Shown piece by piece: positions 1-14,593 of a DNA stretch of 64,000 bases. Location of the stretch: positions 32,575 through 96,574 of the forward strand of contig CAZTNC010000002.1 in the NCBI GenBank assembly GCA_964614915.1, given 5' to 3'. The stretch comes from an uncultured Thiotrichales bacterium (lineage in GTDB: Bacteria > Pseudomonadota > Gammaproteobacteria > UBA4575). The position numbers were made by a program, and so were the translations under genes. The notes under the pieces are model-generated. The model did not search any database. It saw only the letters and a list, made by a program, of their open reading frames with translations, and was not told the DNA's origin. Within the stretch, counting starts at the first letter, position 1. Every line of letters begins with the position of its first letter.

Positions 1-1788
1 ATTCTGTTCATCGACGAACTGCACACCATGGTGGGTGCCGGCAGGGCGGAGGGAGCCATGGATGCGGGCAACATGCTCAAGCCGGCACTTGCCCGCGGAG
101 AACTCCACTGTGTCGGGGCGACTACCCTGAATGAGTACCGCCAGTACATCGAGAAGGATGCAGCGCTTGAGCGGCGCTTCCAGAAAATCCTGGTCGATGA
201 GCCGGGCGTGGAGGACACGATCGCAATCCTGCGCGGCCTGAAAGAGCGTTACGAGACTCATCACGGGGTGGACATCACAGATCCCGCCATCGTCAATGCA
301 GTCACCCTTTCTCATCGTTACATCTCTGACCGGCAGCTGCCGGACAAGGCCATCGACCTGATCGACGAGGCCGCCTCGCGCATCCGCATGGAAATTGACT
401 CCAAGCCGGAGTCCATGGACAGGCTGGACCGCAAGCTGATCCAGCTCAAGATCGAACGGGAAGCACTGAAAAAGGAATCCGATGATGCTTCCAGGAAGCA
501 TCTGGACGAGCTGGAGGCAGAAATTGCCCGGCTGGAGAAGTCCTATGCCGACCTCGAGGAGGTCTGGCGTTCGGAAAAAACGGTCCTGCAAAGTTCCCGG
601 GAAACCAAGGAAGCGCTGGAGCAGGCACGCATTGAGTTGGATGCCGCACATCGAGCCGGGGACTTGGCAAAAATGTCGGAGATGCAGTACGGGCGCATCC
701 CCGAACTGGAGAAACAGTTACGCGAGGCGGCCAATGCGGGCAGCGAGGAGAACAAGCTGCTGCGGAACAAGGTGACGGACACTGCTGTTGCCGAGATCGT
801 ATCGCGCTGGACGGGGATTCCGGTGGCAAAAATGCTCTCCGGGGAGCGTGAGAAGTTGCTGCGCATGGAACAGGAGTTGCGTGCACGAGTCATCGGTCAG
901 GATGAGGCGGTGCAGGTGATCTCCGATGCCGTTCGAAGATCGAGGGCCGGGATCTCCGATCCACGGCGCCCGAATGGCTCGTTCCTGTTCCTTGGCCCGA
1001 CCGGGGTGGGCAAGACTGAGTTGACCAAGGCGCTGACCGAGTTCCTGTTCGACAACGAGGATGCCCTGATTCGCGTCGACATGTCCGAGTTCATGGAGAA
1101 GCATTCCGTGGCCCGGCTGATCGGTGCCCCTCCGGGATACGTGGGTTACGAAGAGGGTGGCTACCTGACCGAGGCTGTACGTCGCAAGCCGTACAGCGTG
1201 GTACTGATGGATGAAATCGAGAAGGCGCATCCGGACGTGTTCAATATCCTGCTGCAGGTGCTCGATGACGGGCGCCTGACCGACGGGCATGGCAACACCG
1301 TGGACTTCAAGAATACCGTGATCATCATGACCTCCAATCTCGGCAGCGATGTCATCCAGGGGTTTGCATCTGCGGAGGGAGAGGACGCGGACCATTACGA
1401 GGAGATGAAGGCGGCGGTGATGGCGCTGGTGAACACCCGGCTGAAACCGGAGCTCATCAACCGCATCGACGACTGCATCGTGTTCCATTCGCTGCGCAAG
1501 GAACACATCCGCGCCATCACGGAAATTCAGCTGGATCATCTGCAAAAGCGGGTGACAGACCGGGACATCACCCTGGAGTATTCCGAGGCCACCCTGCACA
1601 AGCTTGCCGAAGCCGGTTTTGATCCCGTGTACGGTGCCCGTCCCCTGAAGCGGGCTGTCCAGGAGATGGTGGGAAATCCGCTGGCTCAGGCCCTGCTTGC
1701 CGGCGAGATCAGTCCCGGCCAGACCGTCCGCATCGATGTGCACGGAGACGGGCTGAGCTTTGCCGCCACGAATCCCAAGGCCGCCTGA
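1..1788 (+). CDS. clpB: ATP-dependent chaperone ClpB (5'-truncated by window edge)
   Basis: Frame open from base 1 (ILFIDELHT, Walker B of NBD1); [13 protein letters not shown], coiled-coil M domain, NBD2 Walker [28 protein letters not shown]. Confidence 0.97.
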
Positions 1789-2052
1789 CCAGGTCGCATC
1801 ACTCCTGGGATCTGAAAACGGGATGTCCGGCTGTTGAATGAGCCGGTTTCAGGGGTCTGGCAGACCCCCTTCCGGACCCGGGTCCTCGGTGGCGAAACCG
1901 GCCACTGCAGGTGATTTTATGGCGTGGAAATGGGCAAACGATTGTGTCCTGTTGGTTGATCTGGTAAGGCACCCCCAAAATCAACTTAAGTATTTGAATT
2001 TTATATTATTTTATAGGTCATGTCTGCGCCTTTCATGCAAACACCGGAGTAT

Positions 2053-2081
2053 TTGCAGTTACAGAATCATGCTTGTATAAT
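2053..2081 (+). promoter_or_regulatory. Putative sigma70 promoter of the monooxygenase gene
   Basis: TTGCAG (2053-2058), 17-bp spacer, perfect TATAAT (2076-2081); GGAGG RBS at 2200-2204 before ATG 2215. Confidence 0.6.
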
Positions 2082-2214
2082 CGAGCGTATCTAATGCCCC
2101 CGAATGGGCGAGTATCCGTATGGATATGCAGTTCATGAGAGAGGGCAACGGAAAAAGATATGCTAAACAATTAAATTTGTAGTTAACCGAGCGAATGCTG
2201 GAGGTGCATATACA

Positions 2215-3369
2215 ATGATGAAACTTATGATTAACGCAAGGTACTGGTTCGCCCCGTTCCTGATCATCGTTACGATGTTCGGAGTGCTGATGGGCGGCAT
2301 GTTCGTATGGGTCGGACTGCTGCTGCTGGGCGTTGGTATCGTGATCGACACAGCCATGAAGTGGCAAAGTTCCGGTGCAGGATTTGACCGGAACGGCGAA
2401 ACGATGGGTGTGCCCTGGCTACAGAACAGCGTGATGTACGTCATGTTGGGAGTATTCGTACTCCTGCAACTGGCGCTCGCATGGCGTATCTACCAGTACG
2501 TCAATGGCGTCCCGCTGAGTGCCGGATTCGACCATGTCATGTTTGGATTCCTGCCCTATATGAATGGAATCTCCGGACTTGACCTGATCGGTGCCACGAT
2601 ATCCTCAGGCATCTTTGCCGGTATTGGTATTATCTACGGACATGAACTGAGCCATACGAAGGGATTTGCCTTTGTCATTTCCCGCTCAATGATGGCGCTG
2701 AGTGGCAAAGCTCACTTCAGCTATGCGCATGTCTATAACCACCATCTGGAACTGGCGCATGAAGATGACCCTGCCACGTCACCGCGTGGAAGAACCATCT
2801 ACCGACACTATCCATTGGCCGGAATCGGGCAGTCCCGCTTCCTGTACAGAATGGAAAAGCAACGTCTGGAGCGTCTGGGCAAATCCTGGTTCACATGGGA
2901 AAATCGCTGGCTGCGTGGCTATGCCATGAGCCTGCCGACCCTGTTCCTGTTCTGGTTTGCCGGCGGCTGGATTGGTATTGCCTGCCTGTCAGTTGTATGG
3001 CTGATCTCAAACTTTGAGCTCGAAGCCCTCAACTACATGGAGCATTACGGCTTGATTCGAGAGAAGGGACAGCCGATTGACTATCGTCATTCATGGGACA
3101 ACGCAACAGCGTTCACCAGCTGGTTCTTCATCGAGATTGGCCGTCAGGCAGATCACCATGACCGTGGTGAAACCCACTTCTGGGAGCTGGATGACGTAGG
3201 TGCTCCTAACACCGGATGGGGTTACTTCACCTTGTTTGCCATCGCGCTCATTCCGCCGCTTTACCACATGTATATGAAGAAGGAACTGGCAAAGTGGGAC
3301 AGAGAGCGTGCCTCAGAGGGCGAGCGTGCGATTGCTGATCGCCTCAACCGTCAGGTTGGTTACGCTTAA
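2215..3369 (+). CDS. Membrane non-heme di-iron monooxygenase, AlkB/XylM (fatty-acid-desaturase-like) superfamily
   Basis: Several hydrophobic TM segments; His boxes HELSH, HVYNHH, NYMEHYG, QADHH; DPATSPRG motif; C-terminal WDRERASEGER resembles XylM-type enzymes; strong RBS. Confidence 0.9.
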   Translation: MMKLMINARYWFAPFLIIVTMFGVLMGGMFVWVGLLLLGVGIVIDTAMKWQSSGAGFDRNGETMGVPWLQNSVMYVMLGVFVLLQLALAWRIYQYVNGVPLSAGFDHVMFGFLPYMNGISGLDLIGATISSGIFAGIGIIYGHELSHTKGFAFVISRSMMALSGKAHFSYAHVYNHHLELAHEDDPATSPRGRTIYRHYPLAGIGQSRFLYRMEKQRLERLGKSWFTWENRWLRGYAMSLPTLFLFWFAGGWIGIACLSVVWLISNFELEALNYMEHYGLIREKGQPIDYRHSWDNATAFTSWFFIEIGRQADHHDRGETHFWELDDVGAPNTGWGYFTLFAIALIPPLYHMYMKKELAKWDRERASEGERAIADRLNRQVGYA

Positions 3370-3405
3370 GCTCTGATTTCGGAGAACGCAAATTTTTAGC
3401 ATGGT

Positions 3406-3434
3406 CATGTGCCCGGGCTCGTCCCGGGCACATG
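3406..3434. repeat. GC-rich inverted repeat downstream of the monooxygenase (possible terminator or mRNA stabiliser)
   Basis: CATGTGCCCGGG-ctcgt-CCCGGGCACATG, perfect 12-bp arms; no U-tract. Confidence 0.6.
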
Positions 3435-3876
3435 CGCTGAAAAGAAGCGTTGAATGACGGGGGAAAGCCGGGCTGCAACAAGGAGAAGAACCCGGCGATA
3501 ACACCTGCGGTCGATAAGAAGAAACTGGACCACAGTGTCTGCAAACGACTGATCGCTCAATACGTTCTGAACGCGAGCAGCACCGTGGAAAGTCCAGGCA
3601 GGAAAGAATAACAATTTGTAATTATCGGTCTTGGGGCCGACACGGCAAGAATCAAGACGGTAAACTTCAATCCTGTACCCGGTGGGAACAGGAGGAGAGG
3701 GGCTCGGGGTCTGGAAACCCCGGCATTTACAGATATCAGGAGGACGCTATAAACGTTATGTGCGTGTAGCCGTAGGGACGGCTTATTCTATCCTGACTGT
3801 TTTTACTACCCTGGGTGACCGGCATAAGGTAACCCCGGACATAACAAACAACTCCAAACATAACGAGGTATAAACA

Positions 3877-4557
3877 ATGTTAGGTGATCATTTGGCGGAC
3901 AAAATGAAATTTTATGGGAACCCCTCATGCCTGCGCAGCGCGATGTGCATGTTCACCGCTGCCGAGAAGGGCGTGGACTTAGAGGGCCACTTTGTCGATC
4001 CCAATGGAACGGGTGCGGCTGACGTTCAGGCGCTTGCGCCGCACGGCTTGTTGCCTGTACTGAAGGACGTCGATTTTGTCGTCTGCGGACAACAAGGCAT
4101 CATGTCCTACCTGGACGACAAGGGCTTTGGCCCATCCCTGATTCCCCGTAACGGCGTTGTGCGTGCAATCCATTACATGTGGAATCAGCTCGCCTCCGAT
4201 ATCGCACTGCCTGCGGTTGCAGGATTGATGTCCGGCGATGGGGATGCCGCAGCTGCATCAGGCTGCTTCGATCTTCTGAATTCGCATCTGGCATCCAAGA
4301 GCAATCCTGCGCTGCGCGGTGATTTCATTTGTGGAGCCTTCAGCCTCTCAGATATCCACTGGGCGGCTCTGGCACAAGGCTGCATGCTTGCTGACAGCAG
4401 TGATGTGGTGGAGTCCAGACCAGCTGTTGCAAAATGGTGGGGCCTGGTCAAGTCGCATCCCAGCACCAGCAAGGAAAACATCCGTGGCTATGATGTGCTT
4501 CCGACCAAGACGGACATCAGCGGCAACAGCCTGCGTGGTGTCACGATTAATGTCTAG
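3877..4557 (+). CDS. Glutathione S-transferase-fold protein, paralog 1
   Basis: AAEKGV, LAPHGLLPVL (cis-Pro loop), C-terminal FSLSDIHW N-capping box; GAGG RBS. Confidence 0.8.
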   Translation: MLGDHLADKMKFYGNPSCLRSAMCMFTAAEKGVDLEGHFVDPNGTGAADVQALAPHGLLPVLKDVDFVVCGQQGIMSYLDDKGFGPSLIPRNGVVRAIHYMWNQLASDIALPAVAGLMSGDGDAAAASGCFDLLNSHLASKSNPALRGDFICGAFSLSDIHWAALAQGCMLADSSDVVESRPAVAKWWGLVKSHPSTSKENIRGYDVLPTKTDISGNSLRGVTINV

Positions 4558-4847
4558 AAGAGCTGGGCCTCTTACTATTCATTGATCACCGGTTTCCTTG
4601 AAAGCGGACCTGCAGGGCGGCATCGTCCGGTCAGGTCCCGGGGAAACACGAGCAAGTCATTGTGGATTGACCTCGGTGGGAATGCCGGGGCTGATCGTGA
4701 AGTGACGATGCCTTGAGTCCCTGTAGAGGGGCTGGGGGGATGGCGCTTCAAAAAGAATTTACGGGCCACAGGGTTTTCAGATTACTCTGGGGGACTCCGG
4801 TTGCATTATAAATACTCGAATTTAATCTGAGTCAGGAGGTGTGACTA

Positions 4848-5054
4848 ATGTATTCATTCAGAGCAATCGTTGTGATGCTGATATTTTCTGCGGCCGTCTA
4901 CTACGGCATGGGTATGCTGGGTCTCACTGCAGCCCATTCCGATCCCTTGATGGCGCTTGCCGGAGCAGTAGTCCTGCTGGTGGCCTTGATCATCAATGTG
5001 TGGATCTACCTCAAGCTCGCTGGCGAGCATCCGTTTAAATGGTTCAAGGAGTAG
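4848..5054 (+). CDS. Small membrane protein (68 aa, 2 predicted TM helices)
   Basis: AGGAGG RBS upstream; two long hydrophobic stretches; amphipathic C-terminus HPFKWFKE. Confidence 0.7.
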   Translation: MYSFRAIVVMLIFSAAVYYGMGMLGLTAAHSDPLMALAGAVVLLVALIINVWIYLKLAGEHPFKWFKE

Positions 5055-5231
5055 AATCCTCCTACTGAAGGAAGCCATTCATAGCGCGCAAGCGCGATCC
5101 TAATAAAAGTGTCAGGCAACTGGGCCTGGAGCAAACAGACGTTTGCCCCAGGCCCAGCCATCCGTTTTGTAAAAAACCGGACAAAAGGGCGCCTGCATCT
5201 TGAGTCTGTCATAGTAGCGACATAACTGACC

Positions 5232-5900
5232 ATGGGACTATTTTCACGCAAAAAGAAAACCACCGAGAAGGTTCGCCTGCTCGGTTACCCCGGGCATGCC
5301 GACACCTGCAAGAGCCTGTACCTGGCCGCTGAAAAAGGGGTCCAGCTGAATCCCGAGCTCATTGACATCCGAAGCGAACAGCATCCCGATGAGGTGCTGC
5401 GGTCACTGTCTCCTTTTGGCAAGCTTCCCTGCCTGGTTGAGGGGGAGGTTGTCACGTCCGGTATCGCGGCCGTTTTGCCCTACCTGGATGTGCGCGGTGG
5501 TGGGCAACCGCTGACGCCTCGCAAGGCCCAACATCTGGGCACCCAGAACTACTGGATTGAGATCGGCGCGCAGCAGGTGCTGCCGCGGATCGAGGCACTG
5601 GTGGATGGCCAGCCCGCAGAGGCAGCCAAAGACGGATTGCAAAAAATCTTTGATGGCATGGATGCACAGCTGCAGGGCAAGGAGTGTATCGTCGGTGCAT
5701 TTTCCTTCGCGGATGTCCACTGGGTGGCTTACCTGCACCTGTTGCAGGTGGCCGGTCAAGACAGCCTCATCGACGAGCGGCCCAACCTGAAAGCCTGGTT
5801 CGAGCACATGAAGGCCCGCAAAGGCAACCACGGCATTGCCTATACGGCGTTGCCGTCGGCAGCGGAGATCCAGCGCAATGAATTCACAAGGGCTGCCTGA
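5232..5900 (+). CDS. Glutathione S-transferase-fold protein, paralog 2
   Basis: AAEKGV, LSPFGKLPCL, FSFADVHW, RPNLKAWF. Confidence 0.82.
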   Translation: MGLFSRKKKTTEKVRLLGYPGHADTCKSLYLAAEKGVQLNPELIDIRSEQHPDEVLRSLSPFGKLPCLVEGEVVTSGIAAVLPYLDVRGGGQPLTPRKAQHLGTQNYWIEIGAQQVLPRIEALVDGQPAEAAKDGLQKIFDGMDAQLQGKECIVGAFSFADVHWVAYLHLLQVAGQDSLIDERPNLKAWFEHMKARKGNHGIAYTALPSAAEIQRNEFTRAA

Positions 5901-5947
5901 ACTGCCGGGCACGTTGGTCAGAACACCCCTTTGGAGCCACAACCAAT

Positions 5948-6730
5948 ATGAGTAATTTGTTTGAGTTCGGTCGTGCTGCTGACCCGACGGCGAGCAGCCA
6001 GTACGGGGCCAGTGGCGATATGAAAAAAACCCAGTACGTGCTGCAACTGCTGGGATTTCCGGGAGATGCAGGAACGCTGAAATGCCTGATCACGGCGGTG
6101 GAAGTGGGCATGGAAACCGATTGCGGAATCCTTGACATCACGGCAGGTGCCCACGAGGCGGGCGAATACCTGCAGGTCTCACCCTTGGGGTTGGTGCCTG
6201 CACTCAAGGAAGCCGATTACATCGTTACCGGAGAGTTGGGCATCATGAGCTATATAGAGGCCCGGGGCCTGGGCAAGCGTCTGCCACCCAAGAATGCAGG
6301 CCTGCTGGCAGCCCAGAACTACTGGGGCGATCTTGCCTGCAGCGAGGCCAAACCGCACGTGGAGGCGATCGTGCAGCAGCGCATTTATGCACCGATGCAA
6401 GGCGAAGACCCTGATGATGCGGCGGTGGACCAGGCCCGTGCAGGGCTTTCCGCGGTGCTGGATGCCCTGGACGGGCAGCTTGCCGGCAAGGAATTCATCA
6501 TCGGAGACTATTCATTTGCCGATATCCACTGGTCGGCCTACATCCATCTCCTGTATGAAGCAGGAGAGGGGGACCTGGTTGATTCCCGCGCCAATATCAG
6601 GGCCTGGTTTGACCGTATCCGGGCACATAAGAGCTATTGCGGGCAGAACATCGTGGCCTATGACCTGCTTCCGAAGCTTGAAGACATCAAAAACAAGCAG
6701 TTACGCTCGGTGGAAGTGTCAGACTATTGA
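5948..6730 (+). CDS. Glutathione S-transferase-fold protein, paralog 3
   Basis: EYLQVSPLGLVPAL, LDALDGQLAGKEFIIGDYSFADIHW, RANIRAWF; GGAG RBS. Confidence 0.85.
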   Translation: MSNLFEFGRAADPTASSQYGASGDMKKTQYVLQLLGFPGDAGTLKCLITAVEVGMETDCGILDITAGAHEAGEYLQVSPLGLVPALKEADYIVTGELGIMSYIEARGLGKRLPPKNAGLLAAQNYWGDLACSEAKPHVEAIVQQRIYAPMQGEDPDDAAVDQARAGLSAVLDALDGQLAGKEFIIGDYSFADIHWSAYIHLLYEAGEGDLVDSRANIRAWFDRIRAHKSYCGQNIVAYDLLPKLEDIKNKQLRSVEVSDY

Positions 6731-6763
6731 TTATCGAGTACCGGTGGGGAAGAATGGCGGATC

Positions 6764-7207
6764 ATGTGGGGATCATCTAAAAATCAGGACCGTCAGATCA
6801 AGGGTGTCACCGGTGCCATTACACCTTTTGTCACGGATACGCTCGCCAGGCTGGACCCGGAAGAAGACCTCGAGGCAGGCTCGATCAAGCGCCGGTATGC
6901 GATTTACTACATATACGGTGCCGTTTTATACTTGGCCGAGTATGATGACCTGGGCAAGGACGTCAAGGCGGTGCTGGTCACCAACATCCTGGGCGAGCAC
7001 ATGAGCGTCGATCAGGCGACGATTGACAAATTGCCGGTGACCGAGGACCATGCAGATGCTGTCAGGGAAACGCAGTTCATGATTGAGGGGGCCAGTGCGC
7101 TGCGCAACTGGCTGACTACCGGGGAGCGCGAAAAGAACGCCGCGTACCTGAAGGAATTGCTGGACAACCCGGATTGTATAACCGGGGAGAGTGAAACGGA
7201 GCACTGA
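6764..7207 (+). CDS. Hypothetical protein (147 aa, acidic)
   Basis: Co-oriented ORF 33 bp after GST paralog 3 with host-like codon usage; no recognisable motif. Confidence 0.65.
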   Translation: MWGSSKNQDRQIKGVTGAITPFVTDTLARLDPEEDLEAGSIKRRYAIYYIYGAVLYLAEYDDLGKDVKAVLVTNILGEHMSVDQATIDKLPVTEDHADAVRETQFMIEGASALRNWLTTGEREKNAAYLKELLDNPDCITGESETEH

Positions 7208-7313
7208 ATCGATTGAATTTTAGACAGCGCCTGGACATTCGCATAAATAATATTCAGGCGTTATGATAAGTAATTAGCATTAGCGGCAAAAAACAATTAC
7301 AAAGGAGGCGTGT

Positions 7314-7421
7314 ATGTCTGATGGTGGAGGAAATGATGCCATGGTATTCGTGGTTGCAATGGTCTTCGGCGTTGCTGTGATCGTACTCACGTTATATCTG
7401 GCTGGCTTAATTCCTATGTAA
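7314..7421 (+). CDS. Unannotated 35-aa single-pass membrane microprotein MSDGGGNDAMVFVVAMVFGVAVIVLTLYLAGLIPM
   Basis: AAGGAGG RBS (7302-7308) before ATG 7314; one uninterrupted hydrophobic helix; TAA 7419-7421; below the ORF-track length cutoff. Confidence 0.7.
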   Translation: MSDGGGNDAMVFVVAMVFGVAVIVLTLYLAGLIPM

Positions 7422-7497
7422 AAAATGGTTCGGGAGCAGAGGGGCTCCTGGTCCGTATTCAATTTGCGAAAGGGGGGTTGCAACTCATCCCAGGCTC

Positions 7498-7525
7498 GTC
7501 AAATCGGCAGACCTGCCGATTTGAC
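7498..7525. repeat. Perfect 13-bp inverted repeat
   Basis: GTCAAATCGGCAG-ac-CTGCCGATTTGAC. Confidence 0.7.
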
Positions 7526-8152
7526 TCGCGGGGGAGCAGCCCGTCTCCCTTTCCCGCTTTCATAAATCTTTCAGTTTCTCGCCGGAAATCTGGCCGGGAT
7601 TCAGGTCCAGGTGCCCAAGGCTTTATCCTCTATACACGTATATCTGATCATGTTTTGATCACTTCAAAGGGATGATGAGCTGAAGTCCTGGGTCGAGGAG
7701 CAAAAAAGCATCAATCCGTGAGGTATGCCTTCAGGTCATGATTCAGTCTACGGGGTACCATTTGCCTTGATTTCACGGTAATATTCATTACACTTATATG
7801 ACAAGTATGCGGGACCTATAGTGATCCGGCTGAATGGCGCTTGCAAAACAATGCAAGATGCCACTTTCAAGAAGCCTTCAATCTCGATAGGTAGCTGCAG
7901 AGATACAAGAATCAGGCTGTTCAAAGCCGGGATAGAGAGGAAAAGGGGGGATCTGGATTGATACTGACAGCGATTACGATGCCAGCCTCAATTCAATCTA
8001 TAGAACTTACTTCTGTCAAAACCAAATCGTCAGTCACCTGTAAATCATACGACTAGCGGCTGGCACGAGAACAAGAAATTCAAACAAATTTTAGTTAGCA
8101 AGTATCATCGTAACCAATCAAACAAGACTACTTATAACCGGGAGGGTAACCA

Positions 8153-9685
8153 ATGAGAGAAGTTTTTAATCGGTGGTTAGCAATTGCGTTGCTGGCATCG
8201 CTGGCCATTTCAGGGACTGCCTATGCAGGCCCGTACGGCTACGATCTGCACAACGTGCTGGCTCCACGTTCAGCGGGTATGGCGGGTACCAGTATTGCCA
8301 AGCCTCTGGATAACGTGTCGGCAATCTTTGGTAACCCTGCCGCATTGACGGACTGGACGGGAACGGAATTTACGTTCGGTGCTACCTACTACAAGCCTGA
8401 AGTGCGTTTAGATCATGCTGGTGGTTTAGGTCTCCCAACCTACGCTGGCAGTGTACCGCAAGCTACACTTGATCTTCCTGCCGTGGCCCCTAATGATGTG
8501 GTGCCAGGTGTAGCCCTTGGATGTAATAGTGCTGAGGGTTTTTGTATAACTGATTCGTATTTTGATGATGCGGTCAACGGTAACGAGGGCTATATCGTAC
8601 CCCAGGTTGGTGTGACACAGGATCTGCGGCCGTTAGGCTTGCCAGCTGTATTGGGTGCTGGTCTGACAGCAGTTTCAGGTATTGGCGTGGAGTTTCGCCA
8701 TGTGGAAGAAACACTGGGACTGGGAGCTGAGTTCATTGTCCTGGGCGCTAACTTCTCACTTGGTTGGGAGCTCAATGAACAGGTCTCCATCGGTGGTGCT
8801 GCGACAGTAACGTACGCTTATCTAGACCTCGGTCTTGCAGCGACCTCCGGTGTCACGCATGACACTGGGATGCGCGGAACAATAGGTATTACCTATGACG
8901 ACATCGTTCCAGGCACAAGACTGGGCCTGTTCTACATGACGGAACTGCAGCATGTGTTTGATGATATCGTCGCAGTACCAGCTTTTGATCACCAAGACTA
9001 CAATCGTAGTGGTGCGGTAAATAGTGGGGCTGCGCTAGATGGGTATGGAGCCCAAGGACCTGTTCGCTATGCTTCAATCCCTATTGAAGAGCCGCGCACC
9101 ATTGGTATCGGTATCGCCAACGAGACATTCATGGATGGCAACCTGCTGATCGCCGCCGATGTCATGTGGAAGAACTGGGAAGAAGCTGATTTCTGGGGTG
9201 ACGTGTATGAGGACCAAATGGTCTACAGCGTCGGTGCCCAGATGAAGATGGGCAACTGGCGTTTCCGTGCTGGTTATGGCTACGCGGATGATCCAACAGA
9301 CCGTGATGCAGATCACATCAAGGGCCTGCCCGCTGTGTGTTCATCTGCAACTAATTGTAATGCTATTCCAATAGGTAGCCCAGATGGTTCACCATTATTG
9401 CTAGGACAATCTGTGCTGGAATTCCTCCAAGCTTCACAAACAGAGGTAATCTACCGTCATCGTGCTACGTTGGGAGTAGGTTATATGGGATTCCTGGCCC
9501 CGTTCCTGAACATCGACGGCCATGTTGGTGTGCAGTTCAAGGAGCGTAACCATTACAGTGCAGGTACACCGCCGCTTAACGCGACAACCCATCCTGCAGC
9601 GCCCCTTGCAACGGCAACTACTACTGCGGCAGATGTCTGGTCGTGGCATGCAGGCTTTGCACTGACGTGGAACTTCCAGTACTGA
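8153..9685 (+). CDS. FadL/OmpP1/TodX-family outer-membrane channel for hydrophobic substrates
   Basis: Sec signal (AYA cleavage); hatch motif SAGMAGTSIA...SAIFGNPAAL typical of the FadL family; alternating beta-strands; aromatic C-terminal beta-signal WNFQY. Confidence 0.88.
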   Translation: MREVFNRWLAIALLASLAISGTAYAGPYGYDLHNVLAPRSAGMAGTSIAKPLDNVSAIFGNPAALTDWTGTEFTFGATYYKPEVRLDHAGGLGLPTYAGSVPQATLDLPAVAPNDVVPGVALGCNSAEGFCITDSYFDDAVNGNEGYIVPQVGVTQDLRPLGLPAVLGAGLTAVSGIGVEFRHVEETLGLGAEFIVLGANFSLGWELNEQVSIGGAATVTYAYLDLGLAATSGVTHDTGMRGTIGITYDDIVPGTRLGLFYMTELQHVFDDIVAVPAFDHQDYNRSGAVNSGAALDGYGAQGPVRYASIPIEEPRTIGIGIANETFMDGNLLIAADVMWKNWEEADFWGDVYEDQMVYSVGAQMKMGNWRFRAGYGYADDPTDRDADHIKGLPAVCSSATNCNAIPIGSPDGSPLLLGQSVLEFLQASQTEVIYRHRATLGVGYMGFLAPFLNIDGHVGVQFKERNHYSAGTPPLNATTHPAAPLATATTTAADVWSWHAGFALTWNFQY

Positions 9686-9707
9686 TTGAAAGTCAGTAGT
9701 CTTATGG

Positions 9708-9743
9708 AAAAAGGGGTGGCATATGCCACCCCTTTTTTTGTTT
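9708..9743. terminator. Rho-independent (bidirectional) terminator after the fadL-like gene
   Basis: AAAAAGGGGTGGCATATGCCACCCCTTTTT palindrome followed by a T-run. Confidence 0.9.
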
Positions 9744-9914
9744 TCTGACCATACTCCCAAAAGTTCCACTTGAGAAAACAGGGACTAGTTCCAATTAGAA
9801 CCCTGTATGGTCTAAATTATTAGAATTTTAAATTCAGTCATAGGCAGGCCAAATCAAGCATATTTTCTCAACATCGCCGTCCAATTCTGTATAATTCATC
9901 TGGTTGATCAATCG

Positions 9915-9930
9915 TTTCTGTATACAGAAA
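9915..9930. promoter_or_regulatory. Perfect 16-bp palindromic operator upstream of the RiPP precursor
   Basis: TTTCTGTATACAGAAA; extra half-site TTCTGTATA at 9885-9893 overlapping a TATAAT (9890-9895). Confidence 0.6.
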
Positions 9931-9982
9931 TTGTGCCTTGCTCCGCAGGACACACATAACAATTGTTGGAGGTTTTATAACG

Positions 9983-10363
9983 ATGGATAAGAAACGTCGT
10001 GATTTTAATAAGCTAATGGTGGCTGCAGCAGCTGGATTGATGGCAGGAAGCCAGACGGTTGCCTTGGCGGGCCACCCAGGCCACGAAGGTTGTCCGAAGC
10101 ATAGCTGTAAAGGCCAAAACGAATGCAAGGGCAAGGGCGGTTGCAAATCAAGCGACAACGGTTGCGCAGGCAAAAACTCATGCAAAGGCAAGGGTGGTTG
10201 TGACCCAGCCCACACGTATGAGAAGCATGCTTGTAAGGGCCAGAATGCCTGCAAATGCCAGGGTGGCTGCAAGTCAGGTGACAACGGCTGTGCCGGTAAA
10301 AATTCATGTAAAGGCAAGGGCGGATGCCAGCTACCGGTTGACCCCAGCCACATGGAAGGATAA
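9983..10363 (+). CDS. Cys-rich MNIO RiPP precursor (BufA2/bufferin-like) with Tat signal peptide
   Basis: GGAGG RBS then ATG 9983; KRRDFNK twin-Arg, h-region, ALA|G cleavage; 14 Cys in repeated CxG(Q/K)NxCKGxGGC units; lies directly upstream of DUF692. Confidence 0.85.
   Translation: MDKKRRDFNKLMVAAAAGLMAGSQTVALAGHPGHEGCPKHSCKGQNECKGKGGCKSSDNGCAGKNSCKGKGGCDPAHTYEKHACKGQNACKCQGGCKSGDNGCAGKNSCKGKGGCQLPVDPSHMEG
10097..10327 (+). repeat. Two 35-codon direct repeats inside the precursor (10097-10201 and 10223-10327)
   Basis: KHSCKGQNECKGKGGCKSSDNGCAGKNSCKGKGGC vs KHACKGQNACKCQGGCKSGDNGCAGKNSCKGKGGC. Confidence 0.9.
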
Positions 10364-10421
10364 GCAGTACCTAGCAACACATTTGTTGTAAAGTTCTGAC
10401 ATTTCCAAAAACGGTTTGAGC

Positions 10422-10459
10422 ATCGACAGGGCTGCTGGATCCAGCATGCCCCTGTCGAT
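10422..10459. repeat. Long stem-loop between precursor and MNIO gene
   Basis: ATCGACAGGG...CCCTGTCGAT arms enclosing the palindrome TGCTGGATCCAGCA. Confidence 0.65.
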
Positions 10460-10515
10460 TGCTTGAATACTTTCTCTGCTGGTAACATGCTTACCAGACA
10501 AATCTGATTCACAAG

Positions 10516-11376
10516 GTGGTTTCTGTGTCTGTAAAAAACCGCTGGGGCTTTCCTGACCTTGGACTCGGAATCGGACTGCGCACAGTCCATTTCAATCACA
10601 TCCTCGAACACTGGCCCAAGGTCGACTGGTTCGAGATCCTGTCCGAGAATTTCATGGACACCGAAGGAAATCCCGTGCGTGTGCTGGACCAGATTGCAGA
10701 ACGCTATCCGATAGTCATGCACGGGGTCTCCATGTCGATTGGCAGCACGGACCCCATCGATTTTGAATACTTCGGAAAGCTGAAGGCCCTGGCCGAACGG
10801 GTGAACGCTCACTGGCTGGGGGACCATGTATGTTGGACCGGGGTGCATGGAAAAAACGGCCACGACCTCTATCCACTGCCCTACAACGAGGAATCCTTGG
10901 CCTTTCTGGTGGACCGGATCCGTACCGTTCAGGATTTTCTTGAGCGTCCCCTGATCCTGGAGAACCCATCGACCTACATGGCTTTTGCAAACTCCACTAT
11001 GCCCGAGGAGGAATTCCTGGCCCGCATGGCCGAGGAGTCGGATTGCGGACTGCTACTGGACGTCAACAACGTCTACGTCACCTGCCGCAATCATGGGCTG
11101 GATTCCAACGCTTACCTGGATGCGATCCCGTACGACCGGGTGGTGCAGATTCACTTGGCCGGACATACCGACAAGGGCACGCATTGCATTGATACGCACA
11201 ACGGCAGAGTCATTGACCCGGTGTGGGACCTGTATGCCGAGGTGCAGCGCCGTGCCGGAAACCGTGCCACGTTGATTGAGTGGGATGCCGACATCCCTTC
11301 GTTTGAAGAGGTCCATGCCGAGGTTTTGAAGGCGGCGCAATTCCGCCACATGACCGAACTGCGTCATGCCTCGTGA
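10516..11376 (+). CDS. Multinuclear non-heme iron oxidase (MNIO, DUF692; BufB/HvfB/MbnB/TglH/ChrH family)
   Basis: [61 protein letters not shown] motifs; GTG start uncertain. Confidence 0.95.
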
Positions 11377-12220
11377 TGATTCGCGGCTGGAGAGCCTCGA
11401 GCAATGGATGTATTCGGTCATCAGCCACCCCGAGGGAGCCGAGGCCGGAGTCAAAGCAAGTTCCAAACCAGGCAGCCAAGCAGCACATGACCTGGAACAA
11501 ACCGTCCTGCCTTCCGATAAGCTGACTCCACTGGAGTGCGTGTCGGTTTACGCCGATATGTACTTCTGGCGGTTCATCGACATCATGTCGGAGGAATACC
11601 CGACGGTGCAGCACATTCTCGGAAAGGAGTTATTCAACCAGGTGGTCAGGGATTATATTGCACGCCATCCCTCAACACACTACAACCTCAACCGCCTGAG
11701 CATCAAGTTCCCGGATTACCTGCTCAAGGAAGCCGGGGAGATTCCACATCAGCCTTTCGTGGCTGCAGTTGCCACGGTTGAACGTGTCATGGAGGATGCC
11801 TTCGATGACCCGCATCGGGAGAAGATCTCCCCGGAAGCGATACAGGGCATCCCGGGGGAGCAATGGCCCGACATCCGGCTGCAGTTCAACCCGGCCCTGT
11901 ATCTGCTGGAACTGGAGTATCCGGTCAATGACTACATGACCGCAGTGTATGAAAACCGCCATATGGACATCCCACAGGCCCAGAAGACATTTGCAGTGGT
12001 GTATCGCTCAAACTACACGGTCTGGCGTGAAGATCTCGACTATGAAAGTTACCTGCTTTTATCGCGGCTCAAGGACGGGGAGTCCTTGGGTGAGGCCTTG
12101 GAGAACTGCACTCAGCAAGAGGGGGTTGATGCCGACAAGATCACGGCCAGCCTGGGCGAGTGGTTTCAGCAATGGACAGCCCAGGAATTCTTCTGCGGTC
12201 TCGAAATCGATTCTGATTGA
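11366..12220 (+). CDS. DUF2063 (BufC/HvfC-like) MNIO partner with RiPP-recognition/DNA-binding-like N-terminal domain
   Basis: Overlaps MNIO stop; [10 protein letters not shown]...[12 protein letters not shown]...Y...HPS, FPDYL, VATVER, EYPV motifs typical of DUF2063. Confidence 0.85.
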
Positions 12221-12332
12221 CTCCAGTCTGAGCCTGTAAAAGATCTAAGGACCATAGAATGGTTCAAGCCTGATAGGTGCCAAATTGCAAGCCCACCAGA
12301 GGCCAAGCTAGGGCGAGTAAGAGTTCAGTGTG

Positions 12333-12662
12333 TTATGGGATACAGCGAAAGACGGCAAAAGTCTGCTGCCCACGGTCAACTTTCGACATCGGCACGACAG
12401 TGTCACCACCCATATGGATTGCGCTGTTGCGTGCCAGACGCTGTAGCTGATGTGCAATCGTGGAAGCACTTTTGGGTACGAGACCTAAGTAGTTCTCACC
12501 GATACTGACCGTTGCTGCACCATTTTTCTGGCAGTTTTTTACATCATCGGGGCTCAGCACGCGTGCCTTTTCCCCTTCAATAGTCAGTTCGATGGTTTCA
12601 CAGGAGGCCAGGACAAATAGGGCTGCAGTGATCAAGGCTGCAATACGGAGTTTGGAAATCAT
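12333..12662 (-). CDS. DUF4156-like lipoprotein
   Basis: Lipobox LASC; ARNSAIHMGGDTVVP and C-terminal FRC motifs. Confidence 0.7.
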   Translation of the reverse strand: MISKLRIAALITAALFVLASCETIELTIEGEKARVLSPDDVKNCQKNGAATVSIGENYLGLVPKSASTIAHQLQRLARNSAIHMGGDTVVPMSKVDRGQQTFAVFRCIP

Positions 12663-12865
12663 GGCCGGTTCAGTGTGGGTCAGATTGGGTATGCTGCAGA
12701 TCTGTTATGACCCCGCAAATGGTACAGGAATATATTTAAAAAATACAGAACTGTTCCTAGATTGCAGTGTCTTGCCGAGCAAGATCGAAGGGAGCTGAAA
12801 TGGCTTGTCTCAGGCCGAGTTTTTATTCTTCGGACATGGACAGGAGCGTCCAGTATTTCCTGGCA

Positions 12866-14593
12866 TCAGGTCTGAGGTGTGCCAATCCGGTCCTGCAGAA
12901 ATTCCAGGATGTGTTCCCTCGGGATCTGCCGGGCTTCGGGTTCGTGCCGACTTTTGTACTCGATCTCGTTTTGTTGCAGGCTACGCTCGCTGACTACGAT
13001 GCGATGGGGGATGCCGATCAACTCATGGTCGGCAAACAATAGGCCAGGACGCAAATCCCGGTCATCCAGCAGAACTTCCAGCCCTAGGGCTTCCAGTTCG
13101 CGGTACATCTCTTCACTGGTCTTTGCAACCTGGTCGGATTTACTTGCATTGATGGGGATGATGGAGATACTGAACGGAGCAATCGCCTGTGGCCAGAGGA
13201 TACCTTGCTCATCAAAATTCTGTTCGATGGCCGCCGCAATCACCCTTGTGACCCCGATTCCGTAACAACCCATCGTAACCACCTGTTCACGCCCGTTCTG
13301 GTCCAGCACGCAGGCCTTGAGTGCCGTGCTGTACTTGTCGCCCAACTGGAAGATATGACCGACCTCAACGCCGCGCTTGACGATGACCGTGCCTTTACCG
13401 TCCGGACTGGCATCGCCAGTAGCAATCTTGCGCAGGTCCCGGCTCTCGTTGCGGCCAAAGTCCGGCAGGTCCCGATCCCAGTTTACCCCCGTGTAATGAA
13501 ACCCCTCCTCATTGGCTCCGCATACAAAATTACGAAGGGCGTGAGCGGTATGGTCCATGACGACAGGGCAATTCAGTTCCAGCGGACCGAGTGAGCCTGG
13601 CTTACAGCCAAGCTGCGCCTCGATTTCCGGTTCGCTGGCAAATTCCAGTGGAGTTGCCACACTCTCAAGCTTCTGAGCCTTCACTGCGTTCAGGTCGTGG
13701 TCACCGCGAAGCACCAGTGCGACCAGCGGATCCGACTCCCCTTTCACGATCAGGGTCTTGGCCACCTGATCGGGTTCGACCTTCAAAAATGCGCACACTT
13801 CCTCGATGCTGTGACAGTCTGGGGTGGCTGTTTTCTCGAGCGGTTTTGCAGTATCGGCCTCGGTGTTTTCTACAGGGGCAACCGGGGCAAGCTCCACGTT
13901 GGCGGCATAGTCACTTTCCGTTGAGAATGCGATGGCATCCTCTCCGGACTCGGCCAGCACGTGAAATTCATGCGATACGTTGCCCCCGATGCTGCCGGTG
14001 TCTGCCTCCACGGTTTTGAATTGCAGGCCGAGGCGGGTGAAGATGCTGACATAGGTGTCGTACATCACTTGATAAGTGGATTCCAGGCTCTCCTTGCCGA
14101 GATGGAAGGAATAGGCATCTTTCATGATGAATTCTCGCGCTCTCATGACTCCAAAACGCGGGCGGATCTCGTCGCGAAACTTGGTCTGGATCTGGTAATA
14201 ATTGACCGGCAACTGCCTGTAGCTCCGGATCTCACGGCGCACCAAATCGGTAATGACCTCCTCATGCGTCGGGCCATAACAGAAGTCCCTGTGATGGCGG
14301 TCCTGCATGCGTAGCAACTCAGGCCCGTACTCGTCCCAGCGTCCGGACTCCTGCCAGAGTTCGGCGGGTTGTATGGAAGGCATCAGCACCTCGATGGCAC
14401 CCGACTTGTCCATTTCTTCGCGGATCACGTTTTCTACCTTGCGCAGGATACGAAGGCCCAGTGGCAGCCACGTATATAGGCCCGAGGCCAGGCGGCGGAT
14501 CATTCCAGCCCGCAGCATCAGCTGGTGACTTACGAGTTCCGCATCTGCAGGCGACTCCTTGAGGGTCGACAATGGGAACTGACTTACGCGCAT
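12866..14593 (-). CDS. proS: Prolyl-tRNA synthetase
   Basis: [28 protein letters not shown] editing domain, [16 protein letters not shown]. Confidence 0.98.

What the first reader, a model, noticed from the sequence alone, without database searches (positions are those of the whole stretch)
2215..9743. Candidate undescribed catabolic system: XylM/AlkB-type monooxygenase + three GST-fold paralogs + two microproteins + FadL channel, with no electron-transfer genes
Seen: eight co-oriented genes in the block between clpB and proS, namely a membrane di-iron monooxygenase, GST1, a 68-aa membrane protein, GST2, GST3, a 147-aa hypothetical protein, a 35-aa membrane protein and a FadL/TodX channel, closed by a strong terminator. 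Established: AlkB and XylM need rubredoxin/AlkT or XylA-type reductases; FadL-family channels import hydrophobic substrates; GST pairs open epoxides after alkene epoxidation in isoprene (IsoI/IsoJ) and Gordonia styrene (StyI/StyJ) degradation, but those pathways use soluble di-iron or flavin monooxygenases, not membrane AlkB/XylM enzymes. Inference: import, then membrane oxygenation of an alkene, terpene, thioether or halocarbon, then thiol conjugation by a GST-fold complex. I know no described pathway with this architecture.
Basis: partly seen in the sequence, partly recalled or inferred. Interest (0 to 1): 0.85.

Follow-up and report, generated by a model that had tools for sequence, protein, structure and literature searches.

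The report
Candidate membrane dimethylsulfide monooxygenase gene cluster
A sponge-associated marine bacterium carries a conserved gene cluster built around an unusual cousin of the alkane and xylene monooxygenases, and across genomes this enzyme travels with the gene for methanethiol oxidase, which makes it a testable candidate for the still unknown enzyme that starts bacterial breakdown of the climate-active gas dimethylsulfide.

Summary
All eight genes and the terminator exist as described. The oxygenase (MO) has the AlkB fold but sits in a sharply separate clade: members are at least about 50% identical to it, and AlkB and XylM only 31-35%. One of AlkB's nine iron-binding histidines is glutamine.

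"No electron-transfer genes" holds only locally. In relatives a XylA-type reductase, and often a truncated globin, lie inside the cluster. This genome keeps the orthologous reductase alone at the ancestral msrB-dksA site.

The 68-aa membrane protein follows MO in two paralogue classes and is predicted to dock on it (score 0.87, best control 0.00).

MO tracks methanethiol oxidase (MtoX):
- 17 of 17 MO-bearing genomes in a 400-genome class sample have it, against 33 of the other 383.
- The same 3 of 37 genomes of one genus hold both.
- In six fetched loci from genomes of at least four families the two genes lie 0.2-8 kb apart.

The genome also has MtoX with its maturation genes, and Fae.

Best reading (about 0.5): a dimethylsulfide-to-methanethiol monooxygenase. 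No assay exists, and alkane hydroxylation is not excluded. The epoxide-plus-GST model is not supported. Earlier notes of this scan reached the same reading on other genomes.

The parts
2052..2081 (+). Promoter-like site (TTTGCA, 18 nt, TATAAT) ahead of MO.
   Evidence: scores it 10 of 12. RNA-library contigs of three studies begin at 2099-2143 and none covers 1800-2066. This is a weak hint only.
2215..3369 (+). MO: an AlkB/XylM-type membrane di-iron monooxygenase of 384 aa. It belongs to a separate clade in which Gln311 replaces the first His of the last His box.
   Evidence: Pfam FA_desaturase. AlkB structures 8sbb and 8f6t match at E 5e-28 by sequence and TM 0.79 by fold. Clade gap. Q311.
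3370..3876 (.). Non-coding spacer, at the place where relatives carry a truncated-globin gene.
   Evidence: No globin remnant was found (all E above 3). Strain variants carry 1-nt indels at 3405-3824. Globin in relatives.
3877..4557 (+). GST1: a GST-fold protein of 226 aa with a Cys at the position of the Phi-class catalytic Ser.
   Evidence: An orthologue stands next to MO in 40 of 80 loci.
4848..5054 (+). mp68: a two-helix membrane protein of 68 aa and the predicted small subunit of MO.
   Evidence: Found in 39 of 80 loci, and also beside the 58%-identity MO paralogue. Complex score 0.87 against a best control of 0.00.
5232..5900 (+). GST2: a GST-fold paralogue of 222 aa with His at the catalytic position.
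   Evidence: Found in 14 of 80 loci. A GST2-like plus GST3-like pair also precedes the 58% MO paralogue.
5948..6730 (+). GST3: a GST-fold paralogue of 260 aa with Asp at the catalytic position.
   Evidence: Found in 15 of 80 loci.
6764..7207 (+). hyp147: a soluble all-helical protein of 147 aa with no known family or fold.
   Evidence: No Pfam or NCBIfam hit. Model pLDDT 85.5. Best PDB fold match E 0.57. Found in 15 of 80 loci.
7314..7421 (+). mp35: a single-helix membrane microprotein of 35 aa.
   Evidence: Found in 14 of 80 loci. Twelve invariant columns in 7 sequences.
8153..9685 (+). FadL/TodX-family outer-membrane channel of 510 aa. Its N-terminus looks like a signal peptide by eye.
   Evidence: Toluene_X 37.1 bits. 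A FadL-like gene lies downstream on the same strand in 17 of 80 loci (my count). A separate RNA-library contig covers 7887-9572.
9704..9741 (+). Intrinsic terminator that closes the block.
   Evidence: -25.4 kcal/mol, z -5.86, with a U run after the stem.

Best explanation
The block is the oxygenase half of a XylMA/XylN-like membrane monooxygenase system. It most likely turns dimethylsulfide (DMS), or a close volatile methyl-thioether, into methanethiol plus formaldehyde.

Shown:
- MO has the AlkB fold with eight His and one Gln at the di-iron site.
- Relatives carry a XylA-type NADH:[2Fe-2S] reductase inside the cluster.
- This genome keeps that reductase's orthologue alone at the ancestral msrB-dksA site.
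- mp68 co-occurs with MO and is predicted to dock on MO helix 233-255.
- MO co-distributes with MtoX and is in places syntenic with it.

Inferred:
- The FadL channel admits the volatile.
- NADH electrons pass through the unlinked reductase to the di-iron site.
- A methyl C-H bond is hydroxylated, and the hemithioacetal falls apart to methanethiol and formaldehyde.
- MtoX (on C15/C6) oxidises the methanethiol.
- Fae and the H4MPT route take the formaldehyde.
- GST1 (Cys-type) does thiol-disulfide chemistry on methanethiol adducts or protects the cell.
- GST2 and GST3 are non-catalytic partners.
- The roles of hyp147 and mp35 are unknown.
For: Fold and family:
- Model pLDDT 90.9; TM 0.79 to 8f6t and 8sbb; the next hit scores TM 0.37.
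- Clade gap: one full-length 50%-cluster representative at 72% identity, then 33-40%.

Reductase:
- It lies inside the cluster in 29 of 80 loci.
- The own C6 gene is 85% identical to L042's in-cluster copy and sits in a starred clade of in-cluster copies.
- Eleven loci of the order have MO-GST1-red-mp68 between pnp-msrB and xseA-guaB, with dksA detected between in 3 (L027, L042, L044). The own genome has msrB, 934 bp, red, dksA at the same site.

mp68:
- ipSAE 0.87 against a best control of 0.00.
- That mark was reached by 58 of 80 solved complexes and 2 of 110 mismatched pairs.
- The runs agree in at least 98% of contacts and the partner's pLDDT is at least 86.
- My own alignments were used, so the counts hold only roughly.

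MtoX link:
- Class sample: 17 of 17 MO-clade genomes (10 families) have SBP56, against 33 of 383 others.
- Order: all 50 MO-positive genomes of 56 have it.
- Genus of G001: both genes in the same 3 of 37 genomes and in none of the other 34.
- Same-strand clusters: MO-globin-red-MtoX-Sco1/MauG (L102), MO-mp68-globin-MtoX (L103), and MO-GST1-red-mp68-FadL-MtoX (L104, L105).
- Divergent neighbours: L077 and L118.

Own genome:
- MtoX 65% identical to the Methylophaga-type enzyme, plus Sco1/MauG and TlpA.
- Fae, 220 bits.
- An SfnG equivalog.
- Neither of its two luciferase-like monooxygenases reaches the NtaA/DmoA family cut-off.

Literature (passages read):
- PMC6548844: on DMS, M. thiooxydans strongly up-regulates a 'fatty acid desaturase', an 'NAD(P)H flavin reductase' and a FadL-like porin. 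Its primary DMS enzyme is unidentified.
- Preprint 10.64898/2025.12.05.692484 still marks that step '?'.

Expression: contigs from sponge RNA libraries of 3 studies cover MO into GST1, and one contig runs from MO through GST1 to mp68.
Against: - No enzyme of this clade has been assayed.
- In this genome MO, the reductase and MtoX are unlinked.
- Only 1 of the 80 loci has MtoX within the fetched +-10 kb.
- MtoX occurs without MO in 33 of 383 sampled genomes. Three of those 33 (G175, G319, G329) are flagged unpublished.
- MO paralogues also sit beside fabA with a MerR/B12-type regulator, and beside ccoNOQP with hemerythrin. Neither context concerns sulfur.
- PMC6548844 reports, citing Boden 2010, that DMS monooxygenase activity was not detected in DMS-grown M. 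thiooxydans. Its authors read the desaturase as membrane repair.
- I could not show that their gene MDMS009_226 belongs to this clade. None of the 120 proteins listed is named for that species, and the supplements are closed.
- The genome has FadE-like and FadB-like genes, so hydrocarbon use is not excluded.
- Related genomes are not independent, so the Fisher values overstate the case.
Confidence: 0.5

Rival explanations
1. An ordinary hydrocarbon hydroxylase. FadL imports an alkane or alkyl compound, for example algal or sponge hydrocarbons. MO makes the alcohol, and housekeeping dehydrogenases and beta-oxidation finish the job.
For: - The closest characterised relatives are alkane and xylene monooxygenases.
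- The 34-35% relatives lie beside an XylA-type reductase gene (Hydrocarboniclastica) or carry it fused, with GMC oxidoreductase, acyl-CoA ligase, aldehyde dehydrogenase and OmpW genes (Polaromonas).
- Sources label homologues 'alkane 1-monooxygenase'.
- The own genome has FadE-like and FadB-like genes.
Against: - None of the clusters I annotated with Pfam (window, L012, L018, L028, L061, L097) holds an alcohol or aldehyde dehydrogenase or an acyl-CoA ligase.
- This reading does not explain the co-distribution and synteny with MtoX.
- The clade is near-universal, with 1-4 matches per genome, in an order of 1.2-3.1 Mb genomes.
- A di-iron ligand is changed.
Confidence: 0.17
2. The same enzyme system acts on another small volatile, or does other chemistry on DMS. 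Examples are S-oxygenation of DMS to DMSO, dimethyl disulfide or other methylthio compounds, and methyl halides. In this reading MtoX is a neighbour in the wider C1-sulfur metabolism and not the next step.
For: - The context evidence (MtoX, Fae, SfnG) points to C1-organosulfur metabolism in general, not to one reaction.
- From my own recollection, not checked here, AlkB of P. putida can sulfoxidise thioethers.
- GST1's Cys suits disulfide exchange.
Against: - The same-strand order MO-red-MtoX and MO-...-FadL-MtoX is most simply read as consecutive steps.
- No DMSO-handling or halide-handling gene was seen in the clusters I annotated with Pfam.
Confidence: 0.15
3. A membrane-lipid or stress enzyme. 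MO modifies an endogenous lipid, and the GSTs repair oxidised lipids. This is how PMC6548844 read the DMS-induced 'desaturase'.
For: - MO is in the Pfam FA_desaturase family.
- Thirty-one of 80 MO loci lie beside fabA, a MerR/B12-type regulator or the 236-aa ORF.
- The authors give this reading themselves.
Against: - MO carries the AlkB-specific NYxEHYGL motif and the AlkB fold, not a desaturase fold.
- Outer-membrane FadL channels are linked to two paralogue classes.
- A dedicated oxygenase-type reductase is present.
Confidence: 0.08
4. One reading: epoxidation of an alkene or terpene, followed by opening of the epoxide by a GST-fold complex, as with IsoI/IsoJ or StyI/StyJ.
For: Three GST-fold genes lie next to an oxygenase.
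Against: - GSTs are absent from half of the MO loci and from deep-branching clusters.
- GST2 and GST3 lack a catalytic Ser, Cys or Tyr at the aligned position.
- No dehydrogenase or CoA-transferase partner stands in the clusters I annotated with Pfam.
Confidence: 0.05

Closest known systems
Xylene monooxygenase XylM/XylA with the XylN channel (TOL plasmid pWW0, NC_003350.1)
   Same: A membrane di-iron hydroxylase, a Fer2-FAD-NAD reductase and a FadL-family outer-membrane channel stand in one operon. Relatives of the window cluster have exactly these three parts.
   Different: - Only 31% identity, over residues 143-383.
- XylM keeps the His that is Gln311 here.
- XylM has no mp68-like gene, no GSTs and no globin beside it.
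- Here the reductase is unlinked.
- The neighbours are C1-sulfur genes, not benzyl-alcohol and benzaldehyde dehydrogenases.
Alkane 1-monooxygenase AlkB (FtAlkB structures 8sbb and 8f6t; P. putida-type alkB on plasmids)
   Same: The fold matches (TM 0.79). The four His motifs and NYxEHYGL are present.
   Different: - Eight of the nine His called invariant in PMC10110569 are present; H321 of FtAlkB is Gln here.
- The partner is a XylA-type reductase and not rubredoxin.
- The genome's single rubredoxin gene stands alone on another contig.
- No small membrane subunit is annotated beside alkB or xylM in the three annotated plasmid loci I read, and none is known to me for AlkB (recalled).
Ferredoxin/FNR-linked AlkB-like enzymes (Hydrocarboniclastica marina psoil36-7; fused form on Polaromonas naphthalenivorans pPNAP01)
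   Same: These are the nearest annotated relatives, at 34-35% identity. They share the reductase type, encoded alongside or fused.
   Different: They sit in classical alkane-degradation clusters with GMC oxidoreductase, acyl-CoA ligase, aldehyde dehydrogenase and OmpW. They keep the ninth His.
DMS monooxygenase DmoAB (Hyphomicrobium sulfonivorans), cited in PMC6548844
   Same: It catalyses the reaction proposed here: DMS to methanethiol plus formaldehyde.
   Different: It is an unrelated soluble FMNH2-dependent luciferase-like enzyme. Neither of this genome's two luciferase-like proteins reaches the NtaA/DmoA family cut-off.
IsoI/IsoJ and StyI/StyJ glutathione transferases of isoprene and styrene degradation (recalled, not fetched)
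   Same: GST-fold genes stand next to an oxygenase.
   Different: Those pathways use soluble di-iron or flavin epoxidases plus dehydrogenase and CoA-transferase genes. Here the GSTs are dispensable across the family, and two of the three lack a catalytic residue.

Membership tests
AlkB/XylM membrane di-iron monooxygenases | Pfam FA_desaturase domain and the AlkB-type NYxEHYGL motif | tested here: met
   The domain scores 87 bits against a cut-off of 29.7. The motif reads NYMEHYGL.
AlkB/XylM membrane di-iron monooxygenases | Nine iron-binding His from four motifs, said to be invariant across species (PMC10110569, passages read) | tested here: not met
   Eight of the nine are present. Position 311, which aligns with FtAlkB H321, is Gln in 90 of 92 clade members. 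It is His in all 5 outgroups and all 7 distant representatives.
AlkB/XylM membrane di-iron monooxygenases | AlkB fold | tested here: met
   The model has pLDDT 90.9. It matches 8f6t at E 2.6e-15 and TMq 0.79, and 8sbb_A at TMq 0.79.
AlkB subfamily | Rubredoxin (AlkG) as electron donor, usually encoded nearby or fused | tested here: inconclusive
   No rubredoxin gene lies in the cluster. One stands alone at C3:53219-53356. I saw none in the related clusters I annotated.
XylM subfamily | XylA-type Fer2-FAD_binding_6-NAD_binding_1 reductase as partner | tested here: met
   It lies inside the cluster in 29 of 80 related loci. The own orthologue is at G000:C6:81015-82112 and is unlinked. Physical partnership was not tested.
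XylM or AlkB orthologue groups | Close sequence kinship to a characterised member | tested here: not met
   Identity to annotated XylM and AlkB is 31-35% at most. The clade is separate and well supported, with SH-aLRT 95-100 on its deep branches.
Glutathione S-transferases (cytosolic GST fold) | GST_N and GST_C domains | tested here: met
   GST2 and GST3 pass GST_C. The window's GST1 is just under the cut-offs. The family profile hits Phi-class GSTs at E 1.8e-30 over the full length.
Glutathione S-transferases (catalytically active) | A Ser, Cys or Tyr at the N-terminal catalytic position, and the Glu-Ser pair that binds glutathione | tested here: inconclusive
   GST1 has a Cys aligned with the Phi-class Ser. 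GST2 has His there and GST3 has Asp. The Glu-Ser pair reads Gln-Gln in GST1, Thr-Ser in GST2 and Gly-Glu in GST3. I read this by eye; where the motif lies is recalled.
FadL/TodX/XylN outer-membrane channels | Toluene_X domain over the cut-off and an N-terminal signal peptide | tested here: met
   The domain scores 37.1 bits against 29.7, over residues 41-386 of 510. The signal-like N-terminus was read by eye, without a predictor.
DmoA-type DMS monooxygenase | Luciferase-like FMNH2-dependent enzyme of the NtaA/DmoA family | tested here: not met
   MO is an integral membrane di-iron protein. The genome's two luciferase-like proteins are an SfnG equivalog (529.6 bits) and an unassigned one. TIGR03860 scores 111 bits against a cut-off of 279.7 on the SfnG equivalog and is not listed for the other.
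Isoprene/styrene-type epoxide-GST pathways | Soluble epoxidase plus a GST pair plus dehydrogenase and CoA-transferase genes in one cluster | tested here: not met
   Pfam found no such genes in the clusters I annotated: the window, L012, L018, L028, L061 and L097. The definition of the pathway is recalled.

The most novel reading that the evidence does not exclude
MO, its 68-aa subunit and the XylA-type reductase together form the long-sought membrane-bound DMS monooxygenase of marine methylotrophs and sulfur-oxidising symbionts. It would be a third, structurally unrelated route from DMS to methanethiol. It would use an eight-His, one-Gln di-iron site and be served by oxygen carriers (globin, hemerythrin) and NorQ/NorD-type metal chaperones. 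Sponge symbionts of this order would then live partly on host- or community-derived DMS.
Probability: 0.45. Interest if true: 0.9.

Novelty: new variant of a known kind. Interest (0 to 1): 0.75.

Why it matters
DMS is the main biogenic sulfur gas leaving the sea. The enzyme that starts its breakdown in Methylophaga and many other carriers of methanethiol oxidase is still marked unknown in the papers I read (PMC6548844; preprint 10.64898/2025.12.05.692484).

This clade offers a concrete gene set that can be tested at once. Its homologues come from marine, sponge and Tara metagenome sources, where sources file them as 'alkane 1-monooxygenase' or 'fatty acid desaturase'. Surveys of hydrocarbon degradation may therefore count them wrongly.

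For enzymology, it is a natural AlkB-fold enzyme with one iron ligand changed and with a predicted extra membrane subunit.

For genome evolution, this window shows a clean case of complementary loss. One cluster copy kept only the reductase and the other kept everything else.

Tried and rejected
- **Remnants of the missing genes.** Profile searches of all six frames of 1789-9900 found nothing (best E 3.2 for globin and 0.82 for reductase).
- **Globin elsewhere in the genome.** No tblastn hit at E 0.01 or better.
- **RNA families.** Rfam found no match in 1-14000 at E 0.1 or better.
- **Naming an M. thiooxydans orthologue.** Searches yielded only the M. sulfidovorans name. The supplement with fold changes and locus tags is closed, so the link to MDMS009_226, _61 and _906 is unverified by me.
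- **Glutathione-linked formaldehyde route as a role for the GSTs.** There is no frmA match over the cut-off and no fghA match at all, so I dropped the idea that GST1 feeds S-hydroxymethylglutathione to that route. gshB is present.
- **The 236-aa ORF next to the fabA-side MO copies as a hidden GST.** hhalign probability is 0.09.
- **hyp147.** The Atlas lists only unnamed clusters at score 0.90. The best PDB fold match has E 0.57.
- **ORFs 3682-3873 and 7478-7675.** I rejected both as genes. Strain indels cross the first. The second is only 43-62% conserved where its neighbours are at least 82%.
- **Beta-oxidation absent as an argument against alkanes.** It failed, because FadE-like and FadB-like genes exist.
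- **Other.** The terminator scan missed the real terminator. The search of earlier findings 'near' gave nothing.

Full report
**What is in the window**

Pfam calls the first a FA_desaturase-family protein (87 bits). It calls GST2 and GST3 glutathione transferases, and the last ORF a FadL/TodX channel (37.1 bits against a cut-off of 29.7). The window's GST1 lies just under the GST cut-offs.

A profile of the three paralogues and their orthologues matches plant Phi-class GSTs at E 1.8e-30. It also matches LigF at 3e-16 and SspA near 1e-12. A hairpin of -25.4 kcal/mol (z -5.86) followed by a U run closes the block. Downstream, before proS, lies an unrelated MbnB/DUF2063 cluster.

**The oxygenase (MO)**

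MO has the AlkB/XylM motifs HELSH, HVYNHH and NYMEHYGL. It matches the two solved AlkB structures by sequence at E 5e-28 and 6e-24. Its model (pLDDT 90.9) matches them by fold at TM 0.79, and the next PDB hit scores TM 0.37.

It is not an ordinary AlkB or XylM, for three reasons:
- Among 1.84 billion 50%-cluster representatives, one full-length cluster lies at 72% identity. The next full-length hits lie at 33-40%.
- Annotated XylM (pWW0) is 31% identical, and the nearest annotated relatives are 34-35% identical.
- Position 311 aligns with H321 of FtAlkB, one of nine His that PMC10110569 (passages read) calls invariant. It is Gln in 90 of 92 clade members and His in all 5 outgroups and all 7 distant representatives.

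**The missing reductase**

A scan of one genome per species found 351 stretches that encode relatives. I studied the best 80, with up to 10 kb on each side. Some of these loci are cut short, so the counts below are floors.

Next to MO:
- GST1 stands in 40 of 80 loci.
- The 68-aa ORF stands in 39 of 80.
- GST2 and GST3 stand in 14 and 15 of 80.
- hyp147 stands in 15 of 80 and mp35 in 14 of 80.
- A truncated globin was found in 20 of 80.
- A Fer2-FAD_binding_6-NAD_binding_1 reductase, the XylA architecture, lies between GST1 and mp68 in 29 of 80.

The window's lineage (L002-L009) lacks both the globin and the reductase. No remnant is detectable.

The own genome has one full-length reductase of this kind, at C6:81015-82112. 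It is 85% identical to the in-cluster reductase of L042 and nests in a starred clade of in-cluster reductases (FastTree).

In 11 loci of the same order, the cluster MO-(globin)-GST1-reductase-mp68 lies between pnp-msrB and xseA-guaB, and dksA was detected between the cluster and xseA in 3 of them (L027, L042, L044). The own genome has truB-pnp-msrB, 934 bp, reductase, dksA-xseA-guaB. The ancestral cluster therefore kept only its reductase. The window cluster groups with L010-L016 in the MO tree and has everything but the reductase.

This answers 'no electron-transfer genes'. A single rubredoxin gene also exists on another contig.

**The 68-aa protein (mp68)**

mp68 has two helices and a conserved C-terminal AGExPxxW motif with an invariant Trp. 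It also follows the 57-60%-identical MO paralogue, whose cluster reads: Crp/FNR regulator, then GST2-like, GST3-like, MO, mp68-like, SCO1, ccoNOQP, FadL-like, DUF302 and hemerythrin.

A complex prediction gave ipSAE 0.87 against a best control of 0.00. That mark was reached by 58 of 80 solved complexes and by 2 of 110 mismatched pairs. The runs agree in at least 98% of contacts, and the partner's pLDDT is at least 86. My own alignments were used, so these counts hold only roughly.

The model supports binding of mp68 to MO helix 233-255 but does not show it. None of the three annotated plasmid xylM and alkB loci I read lists such a gene beside the oxygenase, and I know of no such subunit for AlkB or XylM (recalled).

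**The link to methanethiol oxidase (MtoX)**

I reached this link through PMC6548844 (passages and section 22 read). DMS-grown Methylophaga thiooxydans strongly up-regulates a 'fatty acid desaturase', an 'NAD(P)H flavin reductase' and a FadL-like porin. Its primary DMS enzyme is unidentified. The authors suggest that M. thiooxydans and M. sulfidovorans share that unknown enzyme. M. sulfidovorans carries a 70%-identical MO (P0093).

I then tested co-distribution with SBP56, the Pfam family of MtoX:
- The own genome and 5 of 5 other carriers have it.
- In the window's order, 50 of 56 genomes have MO and 54 of 56 have SBP56. The two genomes without SBP56 also lack MO.
- In an even sample of the class, 17 genomes from 10 families have a clade member, and all 17 have SBP56. 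Among the others, 33 of 383 have it. G276 was not scored. Three of the 33 (G175, G319, G329) are flagged unpublished.
- In the genus of G001 (37 genomes), MO is in 3 genomes and SBP56 in the same 3, with neither gene in the other 34.

Fisher values are 2.9e-17 for the class sample and 1.3e-4 for the genus. Related genomes are not independent, so the within-genus result is the fairer test.

Synteny adds weight:
- L102: MO-globin-reductase-MtoX-Sco1/MauG.
- L103: MO-mp68-globin-MtoX.
- L104 and L105: MO-GST1-reductase-mp68-FadL-MtoX-Sco1/MauG-TlpA, in 1.1-Mb genomes.
- L077 and L118: divergent neighbours, with NorQ/NorD genes between MO and MtoX.

Against this, only 1 of the first 80 loci has MtoX within the fetched flanks.

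**The own genome fits the pathway**

- MtoX is 65% identical to the Methylophaga-type enzyme and is split over two contig ends. Sco1/MauG and TlpA follow it.
- Fae scores 220 bits.
- An SfnG dimethylsulfone monooxygenase equivalog is present, and no DmoA-family match reaches the cut-off.
- gshB is present, but no glutathione-linked formaldehyde dehydrogenase or hydrolase was found.

**Expression**

Contigs from sponge metatranscriptome libraries of three studies cover the cluster at 90-99% identity:
- One contig in each of X1 and X2 runs from about 2100 through MO into GST1.
- One X5 contig runs from MO through GST1 to mp68.
- A separate contig covers 7887-9572, which holds the FadL gene.
- None covers 1800-2066.

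DNA carry-over cannot be excluded, and contigs do not prove single transcripts.

**Reading**

The module is a XylMA/XylN-like two-component membrane monooxygenase (confidence about 0.85). It most likely hydroxylates a methyl group of DMS, which yields methanethiol and formaldehyde (about 0.5).

The roles of the GSTs are inferred. GST1's conserved Cys aligns with the Phi-class catalytic Ser. GST2 has His and GST3 has Asp at that position. hyp147 is a confident helical bundle with no fold match. mp35 is a conserved single-helix microprotein.

**Evidence against and open rivals**

- No clade member has been assayed.
- PMC6548844 cites a failure to detect DMS monooxygenase activity.
- MO paralogues sit beside fabA with a MerR/B12-type regulator (31 of 80 loci) and beside ccoNOQP.
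- FadE-like and FadB-like genes keep hydrocarbon use open.
- I could not confirm that the induced M. thiooxydans gene is a clade member (supplements closed).

**Prior knowledge**

I found no description of this clade or architecture in ten full-text searches. A December 2025 preprint still marks the non-DmoA route from DMS to methanethiol as unidentified.

After reaching this reading I found that earlier agents of this scan had reached it on other genomes. Those are unchecked AI notes, not independent evidence.

As far as those notes show, the following are added here:
- the complementary-loss explanation of the missing reductase;
- the within-genus co-distribution test;
- the predicted MO-mp68 complex.

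Noticed in passing
window 9938-12220: Right after the terminator lies a three-gene cluster on the + strand. It holds a 141-aa ORF (weak DUF7640 match), an MbnB/TglH/ChrH-family enzyme (352 bits) and a DUF2063 protein. The genome has two more MbnB/DUF2063 pairs, on C19 and C8. From recall, it looks like a bufferin-type RiPP locus.
   Followed up: no
L026/L039, L027/L028, L041/L042, L032/L033, L049/L051, L047/L053, L020/L025: In seven genomes the MO copy beside GST1-reductase-mp68 and the copy beside fabA and the MerR/B12-type regulator are identical in protein sequence, although their neighbours differ. This suggests ongoing gene conversion between the two loci.
   Followed up: partly
L096, L097, L100, L101: A third MO paralogue (57-60% identical) stands in the cluster Crp/FNR, then GST2-like, GST3-like, MO, mp68-like, SCO1, ccoNOQP, FadL-like, DUF302 and hemerythrin. 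An oxygenase is thus wired to a high-affinity oxidase and an oxygen-binding protein.
   Followed up: partly
L061, L038, L056, L062, L071, L076, L077, L080, L021, L118: NorQ/NorD-type AAA+/VWA gene pairs lie divergently upstream of MO in ten fetched loci. They may act as metal-insertion chaperones for the di-iron site.
   Followed up: no
G000:C6:69410-70582 (L112:1423-2595): An equivalog of dimethylsulfone monooxygenase SfnG (529.6 bits against a cut-off of 382.95) lies 11 kb upstream of the orphan reductase. It is one more C1-organosulfur enzyme in a 1.7-Mb genome.
   Followed up: no
G000:C15:155979-157013 and G000:C6:111209-111547: The MtoX gene is split over the ends of contigs C15 and C6. 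These two contig ends are therefore probably adjacent in the chromosome.
   Followed up: no
L082:6083-7015 (G000:C6, between msrB and the reductase): The 934-bp gap left where relatives have MO-GST1 holds a short Cys-containing ORF of about 59 aa. I saw it in the printed sequence and tested it with no tool.
   Followed up: no
window 6764-7207: hyp147 gives a confident helical-bundle model (pLDDT 85.5) with no PDB fold match better than E 0.57 and TM 0.37. It may be an undescribed small fold.
   Followed up: partly
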